Positions 1-24,325 of a DNA stretch of 25,860 nt are shown in pieces (position 1 is the stretch's first letter; every line of letters begins with the position of its first letter). Where the stretch lies: IMG/VR virus record IMGVR_UViG_3300045988_049160; one strand, 5' to 3'. The notes under the pieces were generated by a model that saw only the letters and a list, made by a program, of their open reading frames with translations, was not told the DNA's origin and made no database searches. The DNA comes from a virus (Duplodnaviria > Heunggongvirae > Uroviricota > Caudoviricetes). Both the position numbers and the translations under genes were made by a program.

Positions 1-835
1 TAATTTTAAATAACTCTCCCTGGATAAAATCTTCAGAAGCATAAAAAAGAGGCTGGCCCGGTATTCTCTCAAATAAAAAACGAGCATTTTTAAATCGACT
101 GACATCCGGAAGAGTTGATACTTTAAAAGTAAGCCCTAATCCGTCAATTTTATAACCTGGAGATGAGGCTTCAAGGCACGCGCTTATTGCAGTGGAATCG
201 TCATTTATACCATCACCAACAGCTCCAAAATCTTTGGGGCTAATAGCATCACGCATTTTATCCTGGAACGTTCGGTACACAGCCCCAGAACCATACTGAA
301 TAAACCAACCAAAACCACCAACAACTCCGGCGATTGCAGCATCGACATAATTACGCATTGAGCGATTATTTACAGCGTCCTGCTCAAATGATGGATCTGC
401 AAGGTTAGAAATTTTGTTTTGCTTTGCATCGTAATATTTTGCAAGCAAAGATGGTTTCATCAATGCACGTCTGAACCACCCAAAACATTGCTGGATCAGC
501 ATCGTCAGGTAGTCAAAGGCATCTTCATGCACTTCGGGGAAAAATTTTCCCTGATTGCGAAGGTCTGTGTCCTGCACTACATCAAGCACACGATCTATCG
601 TAATTCGCCATCCAGTAGCAAGCGGAGACGGAAGAACCACAGAACCGCCACTATAAGTGCCCGCCCCAGTTACCGTATAACCGGTATCCAGGACCAATTC
701 TGTTACGTTTCCGTTCAGATCAGACACCTGAACAACCAGGTCTGATTTTCTGAAAATTCGAAAAGTATACGGAAACGATGTCGTAACGCCGTTACCGGTG
801 TATTCGTTGTGGTCAACTTCGGTTGAGACCGTCAT
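1..835 (-). CDS. Tailspike / tail fibre protein, N-terminal ~278 aa (partial; C-terminus lies beyond the window start). T7 gp17-like particle-binding N-domain followed by the start of a pectate-lyase-like beta-helix (putative depolymerase).
   Basis: Open frame on the minus strand from ATG at 835..833 to position 1 with no stop; not in the ORF track because it is truncated. GGAG Shine-Dalgarno 8 nt upstream. Translation begins MTVSTEVDHNEYTGNGVTTSFPYTFRIF..., resembling podovirus tail-fibre N-termini; the later motif DFGAVGDGINDDSTAI is typical of beta-helix tailspikes/depolymerases. Confidence 0.6.
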   Translation of the reverse strand, partial: MTVSTEVDHNEYTGNGVTTSFPYTFRIFRKSDLVVQVSDLNGNVTELVLDTGYTVTGAGTYSGGSVVLPSPLATGWRITIDRVLDVVQDTDLRNQGKFFPEVHEDAFDYLTMLIQQCFGWFRRALMKPSLLAKYYDAKQNKISNLADPSFEQDAVNNRSMRNYVDAAIAGVVGGFGWFIQYGSGAVYRTFQDKMRDAISPKDFGAVGDGINDDSTAISACLEASSPGYKIDGLGLTFKVSTLPDVSRFKNARFLFERIPGQPLFYASEDFIQGELFKI

Positions 836-938
836 GTTAAATCTCCAGATAGTCGCAGCACCCGTTGCGCCGCATATCTGGTTATTCTATTACCTGAAAA
901 ACCATATATGGATAAAAAGACTATAAATACCAATAGAT

Positions 939-955
939 ATTACCTTTCGGGTAAT
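939..955. promoter_or_regulatory. Putative operator, inverted repeat ATTACC-TTTCG-GGTAAT (copy 1 of 5)
   Basis: Perfect 6-bp inverted half-sites with a 5-bp spacer, in the divergent intergenic region between the tailspike start (835) and the small antirepressor-like gene (1031). Confidence 0.45.
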
Positions 956-991
956 TTGCAAAACGTGCTGGATAGCAAACAAATTATTTGT

Positions 992-1011
992 TACTGTATA
1001 AACATACAGTT
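992..1011. promoter_or_regulatory. LexA (SOS) box, TACTGTATAAACATACAGTT
   Basis: CTGT-N8-ACAG with AT-rich spacer, close to the E. coli LexA consensus TACTGTATATATATACAGTA; sits about 20 bp upstream of the RBS/ATG of the 1031..1288 gene. Confidence 0.6.
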
Positions 1012-1030
1012 ATTGCATGGAGAAGATAAG

Positions 1031-1288
1031 ATGCAGCAGTATCACTATCCACTGGAAGACGGATTTACCGAAAGGATTCACACGCCGGGAGGCGTCAGGT
1101 CACTGGTGGAGGGATCGCACTTGATGAAATTACTCCGGGATCTCGATAAGGATGGATTTAATGTCGATGGCCCACTTGCCGAACTGACTGCACTGATTAA
1201 CTACGTCACCAGCTCACAGATGTCTATGCAGGATCTGCAAACACATCTCGACTATTGTGCCGAACAATTACGAAAACAAACCCGGTAA
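1031..1288 (+). CDS. Small (85 aa) antirepressor-like protein, paralogous to the C-terminal domain of the Bro-N antirepressor at 2435..3127; putative SOS-inducible antirepressor
   Basis: Internal ATG at 1031 preceded by GGAGAAG RBS; the annotated 908 start would put the operator and LexA box inside the coding sequence. IHTPGGVRSLVEGSHLMKLLRDLDKDGFNVDGPLAELTALINYV...DLQTHLDYCAEQL aligns by eye with IHSPSGVLGLTENSLLMNLLNQLQDDGHDVSGAAAELTTMFCYI...DIQTHAEYINDK of the larger protein. Confidence 0.55.
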   Translation: MQQYHYPLEDGFTERIHTPGGVRSLVEGSHLMKLLRDLDKDGFNVDGPLAELTALINYVTSSQMSMQDLQTHLDYCAEQLRKQTR

Positions 1289-1294
1289 ATTTAA

Positions 1295-1312
1295 AGGCCG
1301 CAAGAGCGGCCT
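1295..1312. terminator. Hairpin AGGCCGC-AAGA-GCGGCCT between convergent genes, likely bidirectional terminator (stronger for the minus strand)
   Basis: 7-bp GC-rich stem; on the minus strand it is followed by TTTAAATTT; overlaps the stop codon of the 1311..2039 gene. Confidence 0.4.
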
Positions 1313-2039
1313 ATCGTTTCGCTTTGTGCTCGTCCCAGCACGTTTTGCACCATGCCATTAAGCCGTCCGCATTTTGATTATTAGGGTAAAAGCTGGTCCG
1401 TTTTCTGCGGACATTACAAATTGGGCACCACTTCATATGGCGTGTATTCTTTGGGCCATCGAGACACCTTGCACACCACTTAGTCAATCCATCTGGATTT
1501 TTTGACGATTTCCGGAATTTGTCATATGGAAGGTTTATTCTGCATCGCAAACACTGCTTGCGGCCACTTGAAACTCTGTTAGCTGATTCTTCTTTTGGCG
1601 GCGATACAGAAGGTATTCTTGCTGGCTCTGATACTGCCTGAGGTGCTTTTTTAGATGACTGAGACGATATGTCATCACCAGGGAATCTTCCATGATATGC
1701 CGGACGCGTTGACACTCCAGGTGGAAGCTCAGCTGTAAACGGCTTTGGCTGAATCAGTTGCCTCTCTTTTGCTAACTCCTGCTGTTTATAATATGTCTGG
1801 ATTACCGCACTATCATAAGCAGGAGGTGCGGAAATATTAGGCGCATTACCTCCAGTTTTTTGAAACTGAGTAGAGGTGTGTTCTATCACCTGTGTACGAT
1901 TAATCGTTATCTCCCCATCTTCGGTCTTTATCGTTTTGTTATGATTAACGACCGTACGATCAGAGATCTTAGTCTTGTTCTGGTTGATAACGTAAATAAT
2001 CACCGCAACCACACCAACAACTATCCAGAAAACTTCCAT
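1311..2039 (-). CDS. Membrane-anchored protein with N-terminal transmembrane helix, Pro-rich linker and two tandem C4 zinc-ribbon repeats; function unknown
   Basis: 242-aa ORF; N-terminus MEVFWIVVGVVAVIIYVI is hydrophobic; C-terminus has two Cys-x2-Cys pairs repeated twice (CLRC...NPDGLTKWCARC and CPIC...NADGLMAWCKTC). GAGGAAAA RBS upstream of the ATG at 2039. Confidence 0.5.
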   Translation of the reverse strand: MEVFWIVVGVVAVIIYVINQNKTKISDRTVVNHNKTIKTEDGEITINRTQVIEHTSTQFQKTGGNAPNISAPPAYDSAVIQTYYKQQELAKERQLIQPKPFTAELPPGVSTRPAYHGRFPGDDISSQSSKKAPQAVSEPARIPSVSPPKEESANRVSSGRKQCLRCRINLPYDKFRKSSKNPDGLTKWCARCLDGPKNTRHMKWCPICNVRRKRTSFYPNNQNADGLMAWCKTCWDEHKAKR

Positions 2040-2058
2040 TGCTTTTCCTCACAATAAC

Positions 2059-2075
2059 ATTACCTTAAAGGTAAT
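2059..2075. promoter_or_regulatory. Putative operator ATTACC-TTAAA-GGTAAT (copy 2), perfect 17-bp inverted repeat
   Basis: Immediately upstream of the RBS of the minus-strand zinc-ribbon gene (ATG at 2039). Confidence 0.45.
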
Positions 2076-2152
2076 ATCTTGCTTTCAGGTGATCAAGCGT
2101 TAAACGCAATCAACCAAATACGGTTGATTTTAATATTTCTTCGCGTTTATCA

Positions 2153-2169
2153 TTACCTTTGCGGTAAAT
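2153..2169. promoter_or_regulatory. Putative operator ATTACC-TTTGC-GGTAAA (copy 3)
   Basis: Directly downstream of a -35/-10-like pair (TTGATT 2124-2129, 17-bp spacer), in the leader upstream of the antirepressor gene. Confidence 0.4.
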
Positions 2170-2434
2170 TTACATCGCACTCCTCTTGTGCCATAGTAAT
2201 CGGGCACTGGCAAAATCCAGTGCCGGGATTGGTCTCCCGGATTACTACAGAGGCACATATGCCGCATAAGCGGTTTTTTTATGTGTAAAGCGCACCTATT
2301 CTATGGTGGGCTGTGTGGGGGCACCGAAAGGTGCGCCGGGTTCCTTTGTAGCCGGTAAGACCAACTCTGCACAGTTCACCACCATCTGATTGGTCTCAGC
2401 GGTGGTGATTAACCTAACTACAAAGGTGATCGCT

Positions 2435-3127
2435 ATGAATACCAAACCTTCCATCTTTTCCTTTGAGTCATCCTGCCAGATCCGTATGTTCATGATTGAC
2501 GGAGAACCTTGGTTTGTCACCAAAGATGTGTGCAATGCTTTGAATATTGATGTTACACAAGCGAGAAAACTTGATAAAAAAGGCTGGAACAAAAAGGGGC
2601 TGTATTCAATACAGACCCCTGGTGGAATACAAGAACTATCCATCGTTTCAGAATCAGGTCTCTACATCCTTATTCTGCGTTGCAAAGAGGCAATGACTGA
2701 GGGAACGAGAGCATTCAGATTTCTTGAATGGGTTACAGGTGAGGTTCTTCCTCAGATCCGCCGCACCGGAAGTTACATTAAAAACTCGCTCCCGCAGGAA
2801 GAACGCATAAAGATGGTTGCCGACCAGGTAGCCAACGCCACGGCGTCAGCAGTAATGCAGGCAATGAAGATAGAGAACAAAACCTACAGTGCCCCGCTGA
2901 AGCCCGGCTACCGCAGCCTGATTCATTCGCCGTCTGGTGTTCTCGGCCTGACGGAGAACTCACTGCTGATGAATCTGCTGAACCAGTTACAGGACGACGG
3001 GCACGACGTATCGGGCGCGGCGGCGGAGCTGACCACCATGTTCTGCTACATCGTCGGTGTGAGCAAATGCCTGCGTGATATCCAGACCCACGCGGAGTAT
3101 ATCAACGACAAAGCAGGGTTCTTCTGA
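2435..3127 (+). CDS. Phage antirepressor-like protein with Bro-N N-terminal domain
   Basis: ATG at 2435 with AGGTGA RBS; N-terminal region FESSCQIRMFMIDGEPWFVTKDVCNALNI...GGIQELSIVSESGLYILILRCKEA matches the remembered Bro-N/antirepressor pattern; C-terminal domain duplicated in the 1031..1288 protein. Confidence 0.6.
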   Translation: MNTKPSIFSFESSCQIRMFMIDGEPWFVTKDVCNALNIDVTQARKLDKKGWNKKGLYSIQTPGGIQELSIVSESGLYILILRCKEAMTEGTRAFRFLEWVTGEVLPQIRRTGSYIKNSLPQEERIKMVADQVANATASAVMQAMKIENKTYSAPLKPGYRSLIHSPSGVLGLTENSLLMNLLNQLQDDGHDVSGAAAELTTMFCYIVGVSKCLRDIQTHAEYINDKAGFF

Positions 3128-3211
3128 CGAGCGGCGGCACATGGATGTGCCTACAATTATCAATAATTGTTTACACTCGTTGCAGTTAAAAGCATTATAC
3201 TCATGTTTAAA

Positions 3212-3228
3212 ATTACCCGATTGGTAAA
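3212..3228. promoter_or_regulatory. Putative operator ATTACC-CGATT-GGTAAA (copy 4)
   Basis: Lies between a TTTACA -35-like hexamer (3170-3175) and the RBS/ATG of the 3249 gene. Confidence 0.4.
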
Positions 3229-3248
3229 GTCGATTGGTTGAGGTTCAT

Positions 3249-3575
3249 ATGAGCAGAAGATATGTCAAGGAGCTGGCTATAGAGTCTGGCACCCCTTTGG
3301 GTATCGTTCCTGGCTCCAACTATGCCAAGGCTTTAAACCGAGACTCTGTCGTCAAAGTTATATCAAGAGACATGAATATGGTCGGAGACGATCTCAGACG
3401 GTCAGAAAATCGTGTTTATGCTGAATATATAGTAAAGAACGGAAAAAAAATTGCAGCGCCTGCTGGCGGAAAATGGGCAATAGTGACAGGGAAAAACTCA
3501 AATGCAAGAGGAAAACCAGAAGCTAAAGGAATGTCCTTCGACAAATATGCAAAAATCTATTGGGCAACCAAGTGA
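3249..3575 (+). CDS. Hypothetical protein (108 aa), first gene of a small operator-controlled operon
   Basis: ATG at 3249 with GAGG RBS 5 nt upstream (the track start at 3234 is a TTG). No recognisable motif. Confidence 0.45.
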   Translation: MSRRYVKELAIESGTPLGIVPGSNYAKALNRDSVVKVISRDMNMVGDDLRRSENRVYAEYIVKNGKKIAAPAGGKWAIVTGKNSNARGKPEAKGMSFDKYAKIYWATK

Positions 3576-4050
3576 TAACGAAGAAACTGAGTTCGAGGAA
3601 GTTGAGGAAGGGCTAAGTAACGAGATCATTCAACACCCAGATGCCTTCACAAGAGTTCTTGATCGCCCTGAAATTCAGGAGATAGTTGTCGCTCACCATG
3701 CGTTTCAGGGTCCGCTTCCTCCCCCCTATCTGCTTCGCGGGTATCAGGATATTTTACCTGATGCCCCCGAACGCATCTTCCAGCTGACGGAGAAGGAGTT
3801 TGCTCACCGCCAGAAAATGGAGGAAAAGGCACTTGACGGGGCTATTAATAGAGATAAACGTGGGCAGTGGTTTGGCCTGAGTGCAACTATTTTTACAGTA
3901 GCTTGTGCAACATTATTAGGTTTAACAGGTCATGAAGTTCTAGCTGGCACAGTGATCGGTACAGTTGTTGCAGTGGCTGGTATTTTCGTTCTTAGACAAA
4001 AACCAAGCATCAAGAAGAAATCTGAAGACAACAAACCTGAAGAAAAGTAA
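3502..4050 (+). CDS. Membrane protein, DUF2335-like (two C-terminal transmembrane helices); start uncertain (3502 or 3547)
   Basis: ORF overlaps the preceding gene in another frame; motif GPLPPPYLLRGYQDILPDAPERIF...EKEFAHRQKMEEKALDGAINRDKRGQWFGL followed by hydrophobic segments fits remembered DUF2335 phage membrane proteins. Confidence 0.45.
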   Translation: MQEENQKLKECPSTNMQKSIGQPSDNEETEFEEVEEGLSNEIIQHPDAFTRVLDRPEIQEIVVAHHAFQGPLPPPYLLRGYQDILPDAPERIFQLTEKEFAHRQKMEEKALDGAINRDKRGQWFGLSATIFTVACATLLGLTGHEVLAGTVIGTVVAVAGIFVLRQKPSIKKKSEDNKPEEK

Positions 4051-4328: not shown

Positions 4329-4340
4329 GTGACATGTCAC
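4329..4340. repeat. 12-bp perfect palindrome GTGACATGTCAC (copy 1 of 4), overlapping the lipoprotein stop codon and adjacent to the terminator
   Basis: Exact sequence; identical copies at 21728-21739, 22120-22131 and 24386-24397. Confidence 0.8.
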
Positions 4341-4717
4341 GCAACGCAATTATTACCGCGCCATGTAACATTTTTAATAATCTTATCAGCACCAAACTCA
4401 ACGTAAACAGAGCAACTGAAATGGAGTGTATAACCGCCATCAGTTGTTGCGTATGTGTTTGAATATATAGTATTACCAATTAGATTAGACGTAGTATTAT
4501 ACGTTGTGGTTTGTGGTACGTTATAACTACCAGAGCTTGAGTAAACATACACTCTGTTTCCATCTGGAGATGTAAGCTCTCCCTGAGGATACCCCCACTG
4601 CTGAACCATTGCGTCTATACTCTGCCCGCGCCACGTAAGCATATTTCTTTCAAACTGTGCAGCTGACTGGCATCCAACGAGAAGCATAAATCCAAAAATC
4701 AAAAATACTTTTCTCAT
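4337..4717 (-). CDS. Lipoprotein (lipobox LLVGC), Thr/Ser/Tyr-rich mature domain; function unknown (candidate exclusion or lysis-associated lipoprotein)
   Basis: Internal ATG at 4717 gives MRKVFLIFGFMLLVGCQSA..., a classic signal peptide plus lipobox Cys; last gene before the operon terminator. Confidence 0.55.
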   Translation of the reverse strand: MRKVFLIFGFMLLVGCQSAAQFERNMLTWRGQSIDAMVQQWGYPQGELTSPDGNRVYVYSSSGSYNVPQTTTYNTTSNLIGNTIYSNTYATTDGGYTLHFSCSVYVEFGADKIIKNVTWRGNNCVA

Positions 4718-4802
4718 AATTACCCCTATCATGGAAAAACAGCACCAATCCACAAATTAACTAGTTATTTTATTATTCTTCCGAACAATACAATTCCGAA
4801 TA

Positions 4803-4936: not shown

Positions 4937-7411
4937 TTATTGCGGAGTGACATCCTGTGGTCGCCACCAGTATGTCTGGTTAAACTCTTTCTTCGAACGT
5001 TGCTCCATTTTACGCAAATAGCCTGGTGAAAAATACTCCTGCATCTGGTTAAAGATCATGTGATCGAGAGCCGCCTTCAAGTACCAGAGATTCGCACCAG
5101 GCATCAAACCTTTCCCCAGCTTCACCAGATCACCACCAGTCTGCTCACTCTTCCCTTCCACAGCATTTAACGGTATGCCCTGAGCAATCTTCACTACGTC
5201 ATCAACCAGACCAGCTACCGGGCCAAGCATCGACGCCAGCGCGCCGCTTCCGTACCTAGTGTGATCTGACAATAAAAAGTCACCGTAAAGGCCAAGACCA
5301 CCACCTTTCAGTAGAGCACCAAGCCAGAATTTTGCGGCATCTTCTCCTGTCATCTCTCGAGGATTACGACCAGACGCAAGGTCGTTAAGTTGCTGCGACA
5401 AAGCGCCAAGAATGGTCGTACTGGCAATAAACGTCGCAATATATGCCGCACGCCCACCAGCAGACGGCATACCCATAGCGCGTGACCAGTGACGCATAAC
5501 AACCGAGATAGGGAACGATTTAAACAGGAAAACACTTCTCGTTAATTCACCTTTCCATGTTCCACGCTGAATACCAGAACCGGTTATCAGTTGCTCACGT
5601 GCTCCCGGTGTAATAACAGCCATATCAACTTCTTCAGTTACGGCACCGAGCAGTTTACGCATTGCCTCAAATTTCACGCGTTCAGGCTCACCAAGATGTT
5701 TAACTGCTGAATCAGGGATACGCATAATGCTTTCCGGTGTCAGCATCGTATTATTACCGTTCCCCCAGTCCTCCTGTTTCGCCAGCTTCCATACGCTCCA
5801 GTCTGTGTCAGTAATCCCTTTGCTTTTCAGGATACGAAAATCAGAGTCATCGAGGCTACGAAGGTCTGGTGTCCGTGACACTACTTCTCCCAGGCTTCCC
5901 ATCATGGTTACGCCATAGGCGCGCTTGTGCGCATCTGACCATGCTGTAAGCCCACTGGCACGCATTACCGCCGTTGCCGCCCAACGAGACACTGACGGCC
6001 CCATATTATCCATCGCCCAGCGGTTAACGCTGCCAAGTAGAGATTCCATCGCCAGACCAGCGCGGCGCGCCCGCGCAAGTTCTGTACGGTTCGTTGGGTC
6101 CATAGCTTCAAGCTGGTTGCGGAATAACTGGTTCATTGGAAGGTTGGTAACCTTCGCAGACAGATACATGGTTCCAAGATCAGAGAACGATGACAGCAAC
6201 GCGGATCCGAGTCTGCTGGCAACCAGCCAGTTGCGGATATTGTCAGACCATCGCGCGATGTGCGGATTCGCTACAGGCTGTGTCTTTCCGGAAATAAAGT
6301 TGTACAGATTCTCTGTGTTGTTCGCCAGCCGCTCGACTTTACCGGTTTTACTCGGGTTAGCTGTTGCCGTTTCTGCCTTCACCTGATCAAGAAGAGAGCG
6401 GAAAACATGATCGGGGTTTGGGCCATATGTTTCCACCAGTGCAATATCTTTACTGATACCTTCCAGGTGACCGACCATGATTTCCCATAGAGAGCGATCG
6501 CCATAAAGTTGCTGATATTGCAGATAGGAATCTGCATCTTTGAAATGTATCTGTCGTGATGCATTACCACGGTTAGCACGTGCGCCGGAAATTCGCATTC
6601 CGGTATCAGTAAGCTTATTCAGCCCACCAGTAGCGATCGTGTTATAAGCCTCTCCAAGAAATGAAGACAACTCGGCATCGTTCATCAGTTGTCCATCGGC
6701 TCGGATATAATATTTGCGATCCAGCTTACCTATAACATCGCTAACCCACTTATCCTTTGATACTGCCCCAACCTTTTCCATAGAATGATGTTGAGGGATC
6801 CCCCAGTTTTCGAGATAGCCAATGTCCCCACCAGCATCATTAAACCGGCGGCGCAGCAGCTCTGTAACTTCTCTCCACGCCTTAGCACCGTTTCTTGCTT
6901 TAGCATTGCCAGTATTTTGCCCCCGCATTTCATATACCAGGTCACGTACGCCCGCTTCATCTTCAAACAGACCAAAAAAGCGAGGATCAACTGCTTCGAA
7001 TGCCTCCTGCAATTGACTCAATGCATAATCACGGGTGGCTTTTGTTCTGGATTCAACAGAGAGGAAATTAGATTTACCGTCTGCATTAAAAGCTATAGTA
7101 CGGTTAAGAGCGCCAAGTTTCCCATCAGCCCCTTGATAGCTATTGATAAATTTATCCAATCTCTGACGCGCGGCTATAGTGAGAGCCACACGACGTTTCT
7201 TTAATGCCGCTTCTCGCTGTAATTCTTCAGATGCCAATTGTGCTGCTCGATATAGCCGCTCTGATTCGGAAAGTTGTCGCCACGACATAGGGTCATCACG
7301 AGCAATGGAGCGCATATTTCGATAAATGCGGTCTTCAATGTTCTGTATTTCTCGCGCCGTTAACATGCGCTGCGCCGCCTGCTGAACCGCTTGTATACAT
7401 TCCTGTCTCAT
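4937..7411 (-). CDS. Internal virion / DNA-ejection protein, C-terminal region resembling T7 gp16 (internal virion protein D)
   Basis: 824-aa ORF, translationally coupled to the upstream gene; C-terminal segment VFLFKSFPISVVMRHW...ALSQQLNDL...GPVAGLVDDV resembles the remembered T7 gp16 C-terminus (VMQFKSFTIKSLNSKF...). Confidence 0.5.
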   Translation of the reverse strand: MRQECIQAVQQAAQRMLTAREIQNIEDRIYRNMRSIARDDPMSWRQLSESERLYRAAQLASEELQREAALKKRRVALTIAARQRLDKFINSYQGADGKLGALNRTIAFNADGKSNFLSVESRTKATRDYALSQLQEAFEAVDPRFFGLFEDEAGVRDLVYEMRGQNTGNAKARNGAKAWREVTELLRRRFNDAGGDIGYLENWGIPQHHSMEKVGAVSKDKWVSDVIGKLDRKYYIRADGQLMNDAELSSFLGEAYNTIATGGLNKLTDTGMRISGARANRGNASRQIHFKDADSYLQYQQLYGDRSLWEIMVGHLEGISKDIALVETYGPNPDHVFRSLLDQVKAETATANPSKTGKVERLANNTENLYNFISGKTQPVANPHIARWSDNIRNWLVASRLGSALLSSFSDLGTMYLSAKVTNLPMNQLFRNQLEAMDPTNRTELARARRAGLAMESLLGSVNRWAMDNMGPSVSRWAATAVMRASGLTAWSDAHKRAYGVTMMGSLGEVVSRTPDLRSLDDSDFRILKSKGITDTDWSVWKLAKQEDWGNGNNTMLTPESIMRIPDSAVKHLGEPERVKFEAMRKLLGAVTEEVDMAVITPGAREQLITGSGIQRGTWKGELTRSVFLFKSFPISVVMRHWSRAMGMPSAGGRAAYIATFIASTTILGALSQQLNDLASGRNPREMTGEDAAKFWLGALLKGGGLGLYGDFLLSDHTRYGSGALASMLGPVAGLVDDVVKIAQGIPLNAVEGKSEQTGGDLVKLGKGLMPGANLWYLKAALDHMIFNQMQEYFSPGYLRKMEQRSKKEFNQTYWWRPQDVTPQ

Positions 7412-7416
7412 TTAAT

Positions 7417-9219
7417 TTAACCTCTCAAGAAACACGCCACAGCGACATCAAACAGGCTGGAATCCTGTATTGCCTGCTCACTTTCCCTGTTCGCTTCATC
7501 CAGTGCTTCACGCGCACTGCGCGATTGTGGATTACCATCATCATCCAGCACGGTGATTATCATGTCCGGAGATTCAAGCAGCGAGTCTTCAGCTATACGC
7601 AGATCAATATCTCCTGCCGGATCTGCCATCATTTTTTGTTCTGTCTGTTGCAATATCTTACCGGGCTCAAAAGGAGCTACTTCGTCTGGCGTCCTGACCT
7701 CTGCTGTTTTATAGAATGAAACAGCCTGAGTATTAAGTTCACTTTCAGCCTGCTGTCTCCGTGCCAGTTCTGCTCGAGCTTCAAAAAACTGACCGCCAGG
7801 CTCATGCGGTGCCAACGCGTTACGAGAAAATTCCAGGCGTTCTTGTGCCTGCCGGATTCGTTGGTCAATATCGCGAAGTCTGGCCTGTTTATCTGATCGA
7901 GCACGAGATAAAGCCTTACCGCTACCGGCTGGATCTTCTGCAAGAATTTGTGCGCGCTGTTCAGTGAGATTTTCAATAATTCGTTGGCTATTAGCGATTT
8001 CAGACTGGTAAACCTGTCTATCGCCACGCGGCAAAAGCTGCGCGGCCTGTTCTTCAAGCAACCGATTTTCTATAGCGCGCGCCGTTACTCCATCATCTAC
8101 AGATGACAGAGCCTCATTAACTGCCTGAGACAGCAGACTCTTGCGTCCAGGAATTTCACTGAAAGATGCAGACTCAACAATGCTGGCAACGTCTACAGGT
8201 CTCCCCTGGCTAACATCAGACATGGCTTTTCGCAGAGCCTGAATGTGCGAATTACGCGAAAGCACGTTGATCGGCACGCCGGGAGCAATATCAATTTCAG
8301 CATGATGAGCGGCATTCGCCGCCAGTGCAGCATCGATATCAACTGGTGAAAAATTTGGTGCGCTTGTAGACTCGCCGCGAGAGTTAATAAATCTGCCGAC
8401 ACCACCAAACGCCACCCCAAGAACAGCATCAATAGCAATTGCCTGTCGATCCAACACATCATACTGGTTAGCCATTTCGCTATAGCCACCATCACGAAGC
8501 GTTTTTGCAGTAAGCCCACGCTGTGCCATACCGAACGCAATATTTGTACCTGCGGCATAGGCAATATCTGGCGTTGCACGTACTGCTGTTGCTGCGGCGC
8601 GTCGCACTGAACTTTCACCCGTCCGCGCAAGCTGAGCCGCCACACCTTCCGCCAGCGCACCACCAGCACGTAACCCGAGGCTCATAGGGATCAGTGTTCC
8701 GGCACCAGCAGTAATACCCTGCACTAATCCCGCTTCCTGCGCCGTCCTGAAATCAACACCCTGTGCTGTCAGCCGTTCAAACTCAGAAAAACCCTGTAGA
8801 GAAGTTACCGCCGCAGCACCTCCGACCGGACCACCGAGCGTTGTACCGACAACAGCCTGCCCGCCCATATCGAACAACCCATAAAGAACCTGCCCGGCGG
8901 TTCCGGTTGTCGCGGCATCAGGCGTCAGCCGCTTAACCTGCTGTTCTGCTAGTTTTCTCTGCTCGGCAATGTATGAAACTGAAGTATCATTGAGCGAGGT
9001 GTTTTCGTTAATAAACTGAGCAATCGGGGATACGATTTTATCCATCCCTGCCCATAGCAACTGATCTGGCTTTGCCACCAGCCCGGAGTACAAACCAGAC
9101 AATGCCGCTCCTACAGCATTGTCGAAAAAACCAACATCGCTGTTAAAGCCCGCTGGATTTGATGCTGCTTCGTCAAGCTGCTGATTCTGGTTTACTGGAT
9201 TAAGGCCAAAGTAACTCAT
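7417..9219 (-). CDS. Internal virion / ejection protein (Gly/Ala-rich, 600 aa)
   Basis: ATG overlaps the upstream stop (ATGA); position between the gp14-like and gp16-like genes; Gly/Ala-rich composition. Confidence 0.4.
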   Translation of the reverse strand: MSYFGLNPVNQNQQLDEAASNPAGFNSDVGFFDNAVGAALSGLYSGLVAKPDQLLWAGMDKIVSPIAQFINENTSLNDTSVSYIAEQRKLAEQQVKRLTPDAATTGTAGQVLYGLFDMGGQAVVGTTLGGPVGGAAAVTSLQGFSEFERLTAQGVDFRTAQEAGLVQGITAGAGTLIPMSLGLRAGGALAEGVAAQLARTGESSVRRAAATAVRATPDIAYAAGTNIAFGMAQRGLTAKTLRDGGYSEMANQYDVLDRQAIAIDAVLGVAFGGVGRFINSRGESTSAPNFSPVDIDAALAANAAHHAEIDIAPGVPINVLSRNSHIQALRKAMSDVSQGRPVDVASIVESASFSEIPGRKSLLSQAVNEALSSVDDGVTARAIENRLLEEQAAQLLPRGDRQVYQSEIANSQRIIENLTEQRAQILAEDPAGSGKALSRARSDKQARLRDIDQRIRQAQERLEFSRNALAPHEPGGQFFEARAELARRQQAESELNTQAVSFYKTAEVRTPDEVAPFEPGKILQQTEQKMMADPAGDIDLRIAEDSLLESPDMIITVLDDDGNPQSRSAREALDEANRESEQAIQDSSLFDVAVACFLRG

Positions 9220-20687: not shown

Positions 20688-20704
20688 ATTACCTTTCAGG
20701 TAAC
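20688..20704. promoter_or_regulatory. Putative operator ATTACC-TTTCA-GGTAAC (copy 5)
   Basis: About 90 bp upstream of the gp6.7-like start, in the region where the structural operon must restart after the plus-strand moron insertion. Confidence 0.35.
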
Positions 20705-23682: not shown

Positions 23683-24275
23683 TGATTGCCATCCTGACGT
23701 TCTTTCAGTCTCTTCCTGGCTGCCGCTATGCGATCAGCAATTGTCACATTCACATTAACATCCAGGCGTTCTTTGAATGCGTTGACGTCGACGTGCTTAC
23801 CAATCAGTTCGAGGTTCTTCACCTTGTCAGGCCATTTAATTTTTTTGAGGATTGTCTCTATCGAATCCTCGTTCATGTTCATGATGGTCGATGACAGATC
23901 AAAGCCACTAAGCGTAGTGCGCCAGATTTTCGGCCACTCGCGGATTGGCTTAAGGCTCCCATCGTCGTTGAGGATGTCGATCACGTCCATCTGGTCGATC
24001 TCCACCAGGCGCATGAGAACGTAATCAGCACTGACGCGCATTCGTTTGTTGCGCTCTTCCATCAGCTCGGCAATCCGTTTTTGAATGCGTTCATCGCGCA
24101 TCATGAGACTGGCTTTAACTGCCGCTGTATTTGGGGAGAATCCTGCGTTAATCGCTGCCTGAGTCTGGTTTTCAGGCGTTTTGATGTATGACTGGCAATA
24201 AGCCTCCTGCATTGCTGTTAGTGGCTTAAATTGCGTTGATTTGCGTTTATAGGTTTTAGGTTCAGCAGGCATCAT
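23679..24275 (-). CDS. Terminase small subunit (putative); start at 24275 or 24272 rather than 24353
   Basis: Directly upstream of and coupled to terL; helix-turn-helix-like segment TQAAINAGFSPNTAAVKASLMMRDERIQKRIAEL typical of small terminases. The track start would place a terminator hairpin and low-complexity repeats inside the coding sequence. Confidence 0.55.
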   Translation of the reverse strand: MMPAEPKTYKRKSTQFKPLTAMQEAYCQSYIKTPENQTQAAINAGFSPNTAAVKASLMMRDERIQKRIAELMEERNKRMRVSADYVLMRLVEIDQMDVIDILNDDGSLKPIREWPKIWRTTLSGFDLSSTIMNMNEDSIETILKKIKWPDKVKNLELIGKHVDVNAFKERLDVNVNVTIADRIAAARKRLKERQDGNQ

Positions 24276-24325
24276 AACCACCGTGGTAATAGTTACCGTT
24301 GTGGTAATAGTACCATGCAAAATAA

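What the first reader, a model, noticed from the sequence alone, without database searches (positions are those of the whole stretch)
992..1288. SOS-controlled mini-antirepressor: LexA box in front of a gene encoding only the C-terminal domain of the neighbouring Bro-N antirepressor
A near-consensus LexA box (TACTGTATAAACATACAGTT, 992-1011) sits about 20 bp upstream of an 85-aa protein that is a clear paralogue of the C-terminal ~70 residues of the 230-aa Bro-N protein at 2435-3127. This is the arrangement expected for LexA-controlled antirepressors that induce prophages whose repressors do not self-cleave (the logic known from coliphage 186 Tum and the Salmonella Gifsy antirepressors). Here the module sits in a podovirus late region next to the tailspike gene, and the small protein could equally act as a dominant-negative partner of the full-length antirepressor.
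Basis: partly seen in the sequence, partly recalled or inferred. Interest (0 to 1): 0.8.

Follow-up and report, generated by a model that had tools for sequence, protein, structure and literature searches.

The report
Known SOS-controlled phage antirepressor, rediscovered

Summary
A LexA box (992-1011, CTGT-N8-ACAG) scores 26.4 bits on an E. coli LexA matrix; the next best site in the window scores 10.2 and the best of 200 shuffles 18.9. It lies 19 bp before an 85-aa ORF (1031-1288). That ORF aligns to residues 149-222 of the 230-aa Bro-N protein (2435-3127): 42% identity, E 1e-15.

The system is already known. The window is an epsilon15/phiV10-like (Uetakevirus) prophage. The 85-aa protein is 88% identical to SPC32H Ant (PDB 5D50 chain E, E 4e-47), with the same position and the same box. 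SPC32N, the published constitutive-Ant variant, differs from SPC32H by one C-to-A change in that box. A 99%-identical E. coli prophage encodes the matching Rep (5D50_A homologue, HTH only, no S24 peptidase domain).

The stand-alone Ant is the conserved gene; the Bro-N fusion is an accessory. The fusion has its own control: Rep-operator-like palindromes, then isrK and C4 antisense RNAs whose loop pairs with the fusion's Shine-Dalgarno sequence, as in P1 immI. In phage TL-2011b the same Ant-like domain also ends a P22_AR_N protein next to a sar RNA. This suggests the domain is a portable Rep-binding module. Interest is low for the core and modest for the modularity.

The parts
940..954 (.). TTACC-N5-GGTAA palindrome in the tailspike/ant divergent intergenic region; a Rep-operator-type site about 38 bp upstream of the LexA box
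   Evidence: 7 such sites in the window against 0.41 expected. The epsilon15 record annotates the aligned site as protein_bind 'repressor, lysogeny'. It is conserved in all 6 aligned phages. Three similar sites sit between rep and its divergent gene in the E. coli PAR prophage.
992..1011 (.). LexA (SOS) box TACTGTATAAACATACAGTT
   Evidence: 26.4 bits; next best site in the window 10.2. It aligns with the SPC32H box, where SPC32N carries its C-to-A change.
1019..1025 (+). Shine-Dalgarno sequence GGAGAAG of ant
   Evidence: Read directly from the sequence; conserved GGAG in alignment A1.
1031..1288 (+). ant: 85-aa antirepressor, orthologue of SPC32H Ant
   Evidence: PDB 5D50_E, E 4.1e-47. 88% identity to the SPC32H ant gene, annotated 'anti-repressor protein'. 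Equivalent to epsilon15 gp19 and PhiV10p24.
1295..1312 (.). GC-rich hairpin between the convergent ant and 242-aa ORF; probable shared terminator
   Evidence: 7 pairs, 6 GC.
2060..2074 (.). Rep-operator-type palindrome TTACCTTAAAGGTAA, just upstream of the minus-strand 242-aa ORF
2153..2167 (.). Rep-operator-type palindrome TTACCTTTGCGGTAA, abutting the promoter-like site of the isrK/C4/Bro-N unit
2169..2197 (+). Promoter-like site TTTACA-17-CATAGT (TG-extended) for the isrK-C4-Bro-N transcript
   Evidence: consensus match only.
2204..2280 (+). isrK-type sRNA with its own terminator; carries the a1 (UUGGUCU, 2229-2235) and b1 target copies
   Evidence: Rfam RF01394, 74.7 bits (gathering score 50). 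c4-a1b1 RF03163, 39.9 bits, E 1e-7. Complementarity.
2299..2386 (+). C4 antisense RNA (P1/P7 immI type)
   Evidence: Rfam RF01695, 78.6 bits (gathering score 45). Also present upstream of the Bro-N gene in TL-2011b, phiV10, ZX5 and a Klebsiella phage; absent from SPC32H and epsilon15.
2390..2426 (+). a2 (UUGGUCU, 2390-2396) and b2 (CUACAAAGG, 2418-2426) target sequences; b2 covers the Shine-Dalgarno sequence of the Bro-N gene
   Evidence: exact 9-nt complement of the C4 loop CCUUUGUAG (2343-2351) and 7-nt complement of AGACCAA (2358-2364).
2435..3127 (+). Bro-N::Ant-like fusion antirepressor (230 aa): Bro-N domain at residues 1-~111, low-confidence linker, Ant-like domain at residues ~149-225 (DNA 2879-3112)
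   Evidence: PF02498, E 1.8e-13. The C-terminal domain (CTD) against 5D50_E gives E 1.6e-13. CTD matches phrog_450 at E 4.8e-37. BLASTP to Ant E 1e-15. AlphaFold2 (AF2) domain layout.

Best explanation
The window is part of an epsilon15/phiV10-like temperate podovirus (Uetakevirus) of E. coli.

Gene 1031-1288 is ant, the small antirepressor of this phage group. In the lysogen, host LexA sits on the box at 992-1011, which overlaps or abuts the ant promoter, and keeps ant silent. DNA damage leads to RecA-stimulated LexA self-cleavage, so ant is transcribed. Ant, a tetramer in the SPC32H structure, binds the phage repressor Rep. Rep is an HTH protein without a self-cleavage domain. Ant breaks the DNA-binding Rep tetramer into dimers and so lifts repression at the TTACC-N5-GGTAA operators, and lytic growth starts.

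What is shown here: the homology, the box, the synteny, and the presence of Rep in a near-identical prophage. What is carried over from the SPC32H experiments: LexA binding, Ant-Rep binding and induction.

The neighbouring 230-aa protein is a second, separately wired antirepressor. It joins a Bro-N domain to an Ant-like C-terminal domain (CTD). Its transcription unit starts next to Rep-operator-like sites. Its ribosome-binding site is the target of a cis-encoded C4 antisense RNA, with an isrK-type RNA upstream, as in P1 immI and Gifsy-1 isrK-anrP. I infer, with lower confidence (about 0.5), that its Ant-like domain is the part that binds a Rep-family repressor. I also infer that it is made on infection or on loss of immunity rather than on SOS.
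For: - Ant homology: E 4.1e-47 to PDB 5D50 chain E 'Anti-repressor protein'. 88% identity to the annotated ant of SPC32H.
- Same synteny in all relatives: divergent from the tailspike gene, upstream of the ejection-protein genes.
- LexA box at 26.4 bits, far above the window background, and conserved in register across five phages of E. coli and Salmonella.
- SPC32H and SPC32N differ at 2 positions in 1049 bp. One changes ACAG to AAAG in this box. This matches the published explanation of SPC32N's constitutive Ant (from memory of Kim & Ryu 2013).
- A 99%-identical E. coli prophage at guaA encodes a 194-aa homologue of 5D50_A Rep (E 3.5e-42). It has HTH domains only and no Peptidase_S24. Three operator-like palindromes lie in its rep/cro-like intergenic region.
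[quoted passage not shown] LexA-controlled Ant is cited among Salmonella prophage antirepressors (PMC7380047).
- E. coli Uetakevirus prophages were induced 21- to 47-fold by a DNA-damaging microcin (bioRxiv 10.64898/2026.05.26.727859).
- For the fusion: Rfam C4 at 78.6 bits and isrK at 74.7 bits. The C4 loop is complementary to the Shine-Dalgarno sequence. The RNA module co-occurs with the Bro-N gene in four relatives and is absent from the two phages that lack it. The CTD is homologous to Ant.
- In the phage collection, Ant-like CTD fusions occur only in records that also carry a stand-alone Ant.
Against: - Nothing here measures LexA binding, SOS induction or Ant-Rep binding for this E. coli phage.
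- The window does not contain rep. The Rep of the near-identical prophage is much more diverged from SPC32H Rep (alignment) than Ant is from SPC32H Ant, so cross-specificity is assumed rather than shown.
- The simple sigma-70 scan found no promoter overlapping the box. Promoter/box overlap therefore rests on the SPC32H work.
- A Rep-operator-like site 38 bp upstream of the box could mean additional, unexplored control of ant.
- For the fusion: no experiment, a low-confidence AlphaFold2 (AF2) model of the CTD (pLDDT 53-69), and a Foldseek search that did not retrieve 5D50.
Confidence: 0.9

Rival explanations
1. The 85-aa protein is a dominant-negative or modulating partner of the Bro-N::Ant-like protein. 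It would form mixed oligomers through the shared domain, rather than being the inducer itself.
For: The two proteins share the domain that tetramerises in 5D50. 18 positions are invariant across Ant proteins and CTDs. Mixed oligomers therefore cannot be excluded.
Against: Ant is present, with its LexA box, in SPC32H, epsilon15 and the other Salmonella relatives, which have no Bro-N gene and no C4/isrK. In SPC32H, Ant alone accounts for induction (literature). In phiV10 the CTD of the fusion is split by a frameshift while ant is intact. At 42% identity, strict co-assembly is not expected.
Confidence: 0.04
2. The LexA box is fortuitous, or serves the divergent tailspike gene rather than ant.
For: The intergenic region is shared by two divergent genes. 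No sigma-70 consensus promoter was called over the box.
Against: The score is far above chance. The box is conserved in register while its flanks diverge. It lies 19 bp from the ant start but about 157 bp from the tailspike start. The natural SPC32N mutation falls in the box.
Confidence: 0.03
3. The Bro-N::Ant-like protein is an anti-immunity weapon against other, heteroimmune Uetakevirus-type prophages. It would be made on infection, like P22 Ant and P1 Ant, and would not be a second switch on the phage's own Rep.
For: Its control is of the immI type: repressor-operator-like sites plus the C4 antisense RNA. Its CTD is only about 40% identical to the phage's own Ant, so its specificity may differ. 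The CTD is 99% conserved while the Bro-N domain is swapped (67% identity) between close relatives. TL-2011b carries a further P22_AR_N::Ant-like copy with a sar RNA. The phiV10 annotators called it an 'anti-immunity protein'.
Against: No binding data. The Klebsiella Ant shares the DGHDVSGAAAE motif with the CTDs, so the two clades are not cleanly separated in specificity-relevant sequence.
Confidence: 0.3
4. In the fusion, the Ant-like domain serves only as an oligomerisation domain for a DNA-binding Bro-N module, and the protein does not act on Rep.
For: Bro-N/KilA-N-type domains resemble DNA-binding folds; there are weak Foldseek hits to Mbp1/APSES and SKI-DHD. Ant is a tetramer.
Against: The Ant-like CTD fusions co-occur with Ant/Rep-type phages only. 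Three different N-terminal domains (Bro-N, P22_AR_N, AntA) carry the same CTD. This is easier to explain if the CTD is the target-binding part.
Confidence: 0.12

Closest known systems
Ant/Rep/LexA antirepression switch of Salmonella podovirus SPC32H (Kim & Ryu 2013 J Virol; Kim et al. 2016 PNAS; PDB 5D50, 5D4Z)
   Same: - The protein is 88% identical.
- Same gene position, divergent from the tailspike gene.
- The LexA box is in the same register.
- A Rep homologue without a self-cleavage domain is present in a near-identical E. coli prophage.
- Same genus (Uetakevirus).
   Different: - The host is E. coli.
- The box spacer differs at 4 positions (ATAAACAT against ATGTTTAT).
- Rep is considerably more diverged than Ant.
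- In the window, ant is followed by an inserted 242-aa ORF and by an isrK/C4-controlled Bro-N::Ant-like gene, both of which SPC32H lacks.
Coliphage 186 Tum and the Gifsy-1/-3 and Fels-2 LexA-controlled antirepressors (Shearwin 1998; Lemire et al. 2011, PMC3121763)
   Same: The logic is the same: LexA represses a small antirepressor that inactivates a non-cleavable repressor by binding it.
   Different: No sequence relationship was detected. Pfam, PHROG and PDB searches of Ant return only the SPC32H-type family. The resemblance is functional; this is not a family member.
Phage P1/P7 immI operon (c4 antisense RNA - icd - ant)
   Same: - A C4 RNA is present (RF01695, 78.6 bits).
- There are upstream (a1/b1) and downstream (a2/b2) complementary target copies.
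- The downstream copy covers the ribosome-binding site in front of an antirepressor gene.
- Repressor-operator-like sites lie at the promoter.
   Different: - There is no icd-like coupled ORF; the target is the Shine-Dalgarno sequence of the antirepressor gene itself.
- The antirepressor is a Bro-N::Ant-like fusion.
- The host genome is a podovirus with a different repressor family.
Gifsy-1 isrK-orf45-anrP locus (Hershko-Shalev et al. 2016, PMC4825925)
   Same: An isrK-type sRNA with its own terminator, read through into a structured leader and an antirepressor-like gene whose translation is RNA-controlled.
   Different: I did not compare AnrP with the 230-aa protein. The 28-codon ORF inside the C4 region (2303-2389) is not coupled to the Bro-N start. 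The Gifsy-1 repressor is, as far as I know, of a different family.
P22 immI (ant with the sar antisense RNA)
   Same: In the relative TL-2011b, a P22_AR_N-domain protein that ends in the Ant-like domain sits next to a sar RNA match (RF00262, 44.8 bits).
   Different: This module is not in the window. The P22_AR_C domain is replaced by the Ant-like domain.

Membership tests
SPC32H-type Ant/Rep/LexA switch | Small (about 86 aa) protein homologous to SPC32H Ant | tested here: met
   5D50_E, E 4.1e-47, residues 2-84 aligned; 88% identity by tblastn.
SPC32H-type Ant/Rep/LexA switch | LexA box immediately upstream of ant | tested here: met
   26.4 bits against 10.2 for the next best site in the window. 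Aligned with the SPC32H box, which carries the SPC32N mutation.
SPC32H-type Ant/Rep/LexA switch | The box overlaps the ant promoter | tested here: inconclusive
   The sigma-70 consensus scan found no promoter over 960-1030. By eye only weak hexamers are present (TGGATA 969-974, TACTGT 992-997).
SPC32H-type Ant/Rep/LexA switch | Cognate Rep: an HTH repressor homologous to 5D50_A, without an autocleavage domain | tested here: met
   Rep is not in the window. In the 99%-identical E. coli PAR prophage, a 194-aa protein matches 5D50_A at E 3.5e-42. Pfam finds HTH_3 only and no Peptidase_S24.
SPC32H-type Ant/Rep/LexA switch | Ant binds Rep and induces the prophage; LexA binds the box | not testable with these tools
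   Needs EMSA, a reporter assay, pull-down and induction assays. Indirect support: E. coli Uetakevirus prophages are induced by a DNA-damaging microcin.
186 Tum / Gifsy antirepressors | Sequence homology to Tum/GfoA-type proteins | tested here: not met
   Ant has no Pfam family above threshold. PHROG hits are only phrog_450, phrog_15539 and phrog_1760. The only PDB hit is 5D50_E. I did not run a direct pairwise comparison with the Tum sequence.
Bro-N domain proteins (PF02498) | Bro-N domain above the Pfam gathering score | tested here: met
   51.4 bits against a cut-off of 25.6, residues 16-106 of the 230-aa protein.
P1/P7 immI-type C4 control | C4 antisense RNA above the Rfam gathering score, upstream of the antirepressor gene | tested here: met
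   RF01695, 78.6 bits (gathering score 45), at 2299-2386. Conserved in 4 relatives.
P1/P7 immI-type C4 control | Duplicated target sequences complementary to C4; the downstream copy masks a ribosome-binding site | tested here: met
   CCUUUGUAG pairs with CUACAAAGG (2418-2426, the Shine-Dalgarno region). AGACCAA pairs with UUGGUCU at 2390-2396 and 2229-2235. c4-a1b1 RF03163 scores 39.9 bits, below its gathering score of 46.7.
P1/P7 immI-type C4 control | icd-like ORF translationally coupled to ant | tested here: not met
   The only ORF is a 28-codon one (2303-2389) inside C4. It ends 45 nt before the Bro-N ATG.
Gifsy-1 isrK-anrP locus | isrK sRNA above the Rfam gathering score, with its own terminator, upstream of an antirepressor-like gene | tested here: met
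   RF01394, 74.7 bits (gathering score 50), at 2204-2280; terminator at 2261-2274.
Gifsy-1 isrK-anrP locus | Downstream protein homologous to AnrP | not tested

The most novel reading that the evidence does not exclude
The Ant fold solved in 5D50 is a portable repressor-binding cassette. Within one phage lineage it exists as a free LexA-controlled protein. It also forms the C-terminal domain of three different 'Bro-network' chassis: Bro-N, P22_AR_N and AntA. Two of these were seen with their own RNA-based immunity control, C4/isrK for Bro-N and sar for P22_AR_N.

If this is right, the C-terminal domain sets which repressor these large antirepressors attack, not the widespread N-terminal Bro-N/P22_AR_N domain. 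The same Rep family would then be targeted through SOS-dependent and SOS-independent routes, the latter on superinfection or as anti-immunity. 5D50 would also become a structural template for how the very common but mechanistically opaque Bro-N antirepressors engage their targets.
Probability: 0.45. Interest if true: 0.45.

Novelty: already known. Interest (0 to 1): 0.22.

Why it matters
The core has little discovery value. The mechanism, a natural operator mutant and the Ant-Rep crystal structure are all published for a phage of the same genus.

It does have practical value for annotation. The gene is called 'hypothetical protein' in RefSeq E. coli genomes and in most phage records. It has no Pfam or NCBIfam model and is 'unknown function' in PHROGs (phrog_450). 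Yet about 10% of complete E. coli genomes (556 of 5426) match part of the 840-3300 query, which contains ant, the inserted ORF and the Bro-N gene. Many gene callers extend the ORF upstream to 126-127 aa, which hides the LexA box inside a coding call.

The modest scientific point is the modularity. The same Ant-like domain ends Bro-N, P22_AR_N and AntA proteins that sit under antisense-RNA control. This gives a testable hypothesis for which part of the 'Bro-network' antirepressors recognises the repressor.

Tried and rejected
- **Primary papers.** I tried to read Kim & Ryu 2013, Kim et al. 2016 and the epsilon15 genome paper by DOI and PMC id. None is held. Their content is cited from memory and from papers that cite them.
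- **AlphaFold2 (AF2) model of the 230-aa fusion**, built on a 30-sequence alignment. The Bro-N domain is acceptable (pLDDT 70-86), but the Ant-like domain reaches only 53-69. Foldseek against the PDB gave no match at E <= 0.001 and did not retrieve 5D50. This is inconclusive; the homology rests on sequence.
- **Protein-database search with the CTD alone.** It returned only 26 mostly fragmentary proteins. These include 95-aa 'stand-alone' forms. In Klebsiella these lie in a decayed element next to AlpA and HicAB, so they are probably gene remnants and are uninformative about regulation. I dropped this line.
- **Tum/Gifsy membership.** Considered and rejected; no sequence relationship.
- **Other LexA boxes.** The two other CTGT-N8-ACAG matches (16676, 21218) have GC-rich spacers and PWM scores of 10.2 or less. 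Rejected as chance.
- **The 242-aa ORF as a defence gene.** PADLOC gave no hit. PHROGs places it in a family of unknown function, with zinc-ribbon similarities only.
Full report
**What the window is.** Region 840-3300 matches Escherichia phages TL-2011b (95%), EC.W1-9 (98.5%), ZX5 and phiV10 (91%). All are epsilon15-like temperate podoviruses of the genus Uetakevirus. The rest of the window is the structural-gene block on the minus strand. At the left edge (1-835, minus strand) is a tailspike N-terminus (PF12218, E 1.3e-32). Some part of the 840-3300 query is matched in 556 of 5426 complete E. coli genomes.

**The observation.** It is confirmed.
- TACTGTATAAACATACAGTT lies at 992-1011. It is one of three CTGT-N8-ACAG matches in the window, and the only AT-rich one.
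- I built a position weight matrix from 21 E. coli SOS boxes that I recalled from memory. The site scores 26.4 bits, within the top of the training range (12.9-27.0). The next best site in the window scores 10.2, and the best site in 200 shuffles scores 18.9.
- The 85-aa ORF starts 19 bp downstream, behind a GGAGAAG ribosome-binding site.
- BLASTP of this ORF against the 230-aa protein of 2435-3127 gives 42% identity over 74 residues, E 1e-15, aligned to residues 149-222. The N-terminus of the 230-aa protein is a Bro-N domain (PF02498, E 1.8e-13).

**What it is.** The 85-aa protein hits a single solved structure: chain E of PDB 5D50, 'Anti-repressor protein', E 4.1e-47.
- That chain is Ant of Salmonella phage SPC32H. 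The SPC32H record annotates 'ant: anti-repressor protein' at the same position, divergent from the tailspike gene and before the ejection-protein genes. Identity is 88%. Epsilon15 gp19 and PhiV10p24 are the same gene.
- An alignment of the tailspike-ant intergenic regions of six phages shows the LexA box conserved in register. It scores 25-27 bits in the E. coli and Salmonella phages and 17.4 bits in a Klebsiella relative.
- SPC32H and its variant SPC32N differ at only two positions in the 1049 bp I compared. One turns the right arm ACAG of this box into AAAG.
- From my memory of Kim & Ryu 2013 (J Virol 87:11775; not held in the library), the published account is as follows. The two phages differ by two nucleotides. 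Rep is not cleaved during SOS. Ant is repressed by LexA at a site overlapping its promoter. The box mutation makes Ant constitutive.
- Papers I could read corroborate the essentials. PMC7380047 lists Kim & Ryu among the LexA-controlled Salmonella antirepressors. PMC9638917 states that tetrameric Ant binds two Rep dimers and breaks the Rep tetramer. A 2025 preprint describes Ant as trapping the repressor in a non-functional conformation.

**The partner repressor.** Rep is not in the window. An E. coli prophage 99% identical over 840-3300 (strain PAR, integrated next to guaA) has a 194-aa protein homologous to 5D50 chain A 'Repressor' (E 3.5e-42).
- It has HTH domains only and no S24 peptidase domain.
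- Between it and its divergent neighbour lie three TTACC-N5-GGTAA-like palindromes.
- The same palindrome occurs 7 times in the window against 0.41 expected. The sites are at 940-954 (38 bp upstream of the LexA box), 2060-2074, 2153-2167, 3213-3227, 20689-20703 and 24275-24307 (two sites).
- The epsilon15 record annotates the corresponding sites as repressor binding sites.
- E. coli Uetakevirus prophages were reported to be induced 21- to 47-fold by a DNA-damaging microcin. This is consistent with SOS induction.

**Mechanism.** The shown steps are the homology, the box, the synteny and the presence of Rep. The transferred steps come from the SPC32H experiments: LexA occupancy keeps ant off; SOS removes LexA; Ant is made, binds Rep and takes it off its operators. 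I put 0.9 on this.

**The Bro-N neighbour.** The distribution says the opposite.
- All 35 related phage records carry a stand-alone Ant. Extra Ant-like copies occur only in some E. coli and Klebsiella members. SPC32H and epsilon15 have no Bro-N gene.
- The fusion is modular. Its Bro-N domain is only 67% identical to that of TL-2011b, phiV10 and ZX5, while its C-terminal domain (CTD) is 99% identical.
- In TL-2011b the same CTD (88% identical) ends a 314-aa protein whose N-terminus is a P22_AR_N domain (PF10547, E 2.9e-45). Database fragments join it to AntA (PF08346).
- In phiV10 the CTD is split by a frameshift.
- Full-length Bro-N::Ant-like proteins of 226-236 aa are common in Escherichia, Salmonella, Klebsiella, Citrobacter and Enterobacter.
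- Eighteen positions are invariant between Ant proteins and CTDs.

**How the fusion is controlled.**
- Rfam finds an isrK-type sRNA at 2204-2280 (74.7 bits, gathering score 50) and a C4 antisense RNA at 2299-2386 (78.6 bits, gathering score 45). There is also a sub-threshold c4-a1b1 match at 2191-2243.
- The C4 hairpin loop CCUUUGUAG (2343-2351) is the exact complement of CUACAAAGG at 2418-2426. That sequence contains the Shine-Dalgarno sequence 9-17 nt before the Bro-N ATG.
- AGACCAA (2358-2364) is complementary to UUGGUCU both upstream (2229-2235) and downstream (2390-2396).
- This is the a1/b1 - C4 - a2/b2 layout of the P1/P7 immI operon, and of the Gifsy-1 isrK-orf45-anrP locus, but without an icd-like coupled ORF.
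- A promoter-like site (2169-2197) abuts the operator-like palindrome at 2153-2167.
- The isrK/C4 pair accompanies the Bro-N gene in TL-2011b, phiV10, ZX5 and a Klebsiella phage. It is absent from SPC32H and epsilon15. The TL-2011b P22_AR_N::Ant-like gene has a sar RNA match at its 5' end.
- I therefore read the fusion as a second antirepressor of the immI type. It would be silenced in the lysogen by Rep and by C4 RNA, with the Ant-like domain as the likely Rep-binding part (about 0.5).
- Whether it acts on the phage's own Rep or on heteroimmune relatives is open.

**Rivals.**
- A dominant-negative role for the small protein is unlikely (0.04). Ant occurs and works where no fusion exists.
- A fortuitous or tailspike-directed LexA box is unlikely (0.03), given the score, the conservation and the SPC32N mutation.
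- For the fusion, an anti-immunity role against other prophages (0.3) and a pure oligomerisation role for the CTD (0.12) remain open.

**What failed.**
- The AlphaFold2 (AF2) model of the fusion is good for the Bro-N domain only, and Foldseek did not recover 5D50.
- The CTD-only database search gave mostly fragments, and their Klebsiella context is a decayed element.
- The sigma-70 scan found no promoter over the box.

**Verdict.** The finding is real and correctly interpreted, but it rediscovers a published system in an orthologous E. coli phage, so its novelty is 'already known'. The residual interest lies in the Ant fold as a shuffled C-terminal module on Bro-network antirepressors under antisense-RNA control. 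I could not find this in the searchable literature, nor could I check it against the primary SPC32H paper. There is also an annotation gap: the gene is 'hypothetical protein' or 'unknown function' in RefSeq, Pfam, NCBIfam and PHROGs.

Noticed in passing
window 2191-2386 (+): An isrK-type sRNA (2204-2280) and a C4 antisense RNA (2299-2386) lie in front of the Bro-N gene. The C4 loop is complementary to the gene's Shine-Dalgarno sequence. This is a P1 immI / Gifsy-1 isrK-anrP type control module inside a podovirus late region.
   Followed up: yes
window 940-954, 2060-2074, 2153-2167, 3213-3227, 20689-20703, 24275-24289, 24293-24307: Seven TTACC-N5-GGTAA palindromes (0.41 expected) lie at the heads of transcription units: tailspike/ant, the 242-aa ORF, the isrK-C4-Bro-N unit, the 108-aa ORF, and the portal and terminase operons. 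They are annotated as repressor sites in epsilon15. This implies that Rep directly represses many units, structural operons included.
   Followed up: partly
window 1311-2039 (-): A 242-aa ORF sits between ant and the isrK/C4 module. It is absent from phiV10 and ZX5 and is a non-CDS misc_feature ('similar to hypothetical protein') in TL-2011b. It has an N-terminal hydrophobic (probable transmembrane) segment and C-terminal Cys-rich zinc-ribbon repeats, with weak similarity to endonuclease VII, Lar and Stc1. It belongs to phrog_6762 (unknown function) and has no PADLOC hit. 98 of 5426 E. coli genomes match at least 80% of the 840-3300 query that contains it. Its function is unknown; it may be a moron.
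   Followed up: partly
L001 (TL-2011b) 7468-8481: A third antirepressor gene in a close relative: a P22_AR_N domain fused to the same Ant-like C-terminal domain (314 aa, minus strand), with a sar antisense RNA match (RF00262, 44.8 bits) at its 5' end. It is not present in the window.
   Followed up: partly
L002 (phiV10) 5170-5441: In phiV10 the Ant-like C-terminal domain of the Bro-N gene is split by a frameshift into PhiV10p23 and p22. This is either a pseudogene or a sequencing error.
   Followed up: partly
window 908-1288 (+): An in-frame upstream ATG gives a 126-aa ORF that swallows the LexA box. Many database entries (126-127 aa clusters, one with 833 members) use this over-extended start.
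   Followed up: partly
window 2303-2389 (+); L010 (ZX5) 3455-3568: A 28-codon ORF lies inside the C4 RNA. In ZX5 the equivalent stretch is annotated as an 'ash family protein' CDS overlapping the C4 match. This is probably an RNA gene miscalled as a protein.
   Followed up: partly
window 1031-1288: Annotation gap. The Ant family has no Pfam or NCBIfam model, is 'unknown function' in PHROGs (phrog_450), and is 'hypothetical protein' in RefSeq E. coli genomes, despite a solved structure and published function for an 88%-identical homologue.
   Followed up: yes
window 3249-4050 (+) and 4337-4753 (-): Downstream accessory genes: a 108-aa ORF (phrog_10654, unknown function) preceded by an operator-like palindrome, an overlapping DUF2335 membrane protein (182 aa), and a 138-aa ORF with a lipoprotein-like signal sequence on the opposite strand (phrog_3716, unknown function). 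These are variable cargo between the antirepressor genes and the ejection-protein genes.
   Followed up: no
window 886-910: Conserved TTCTATTACC half-site and a perfect CCATATATGG palindrome in the tailspike/ant intergenic region. The corresponding epsilon15 stretch is annotated as an IHF site.
   Followed up: no
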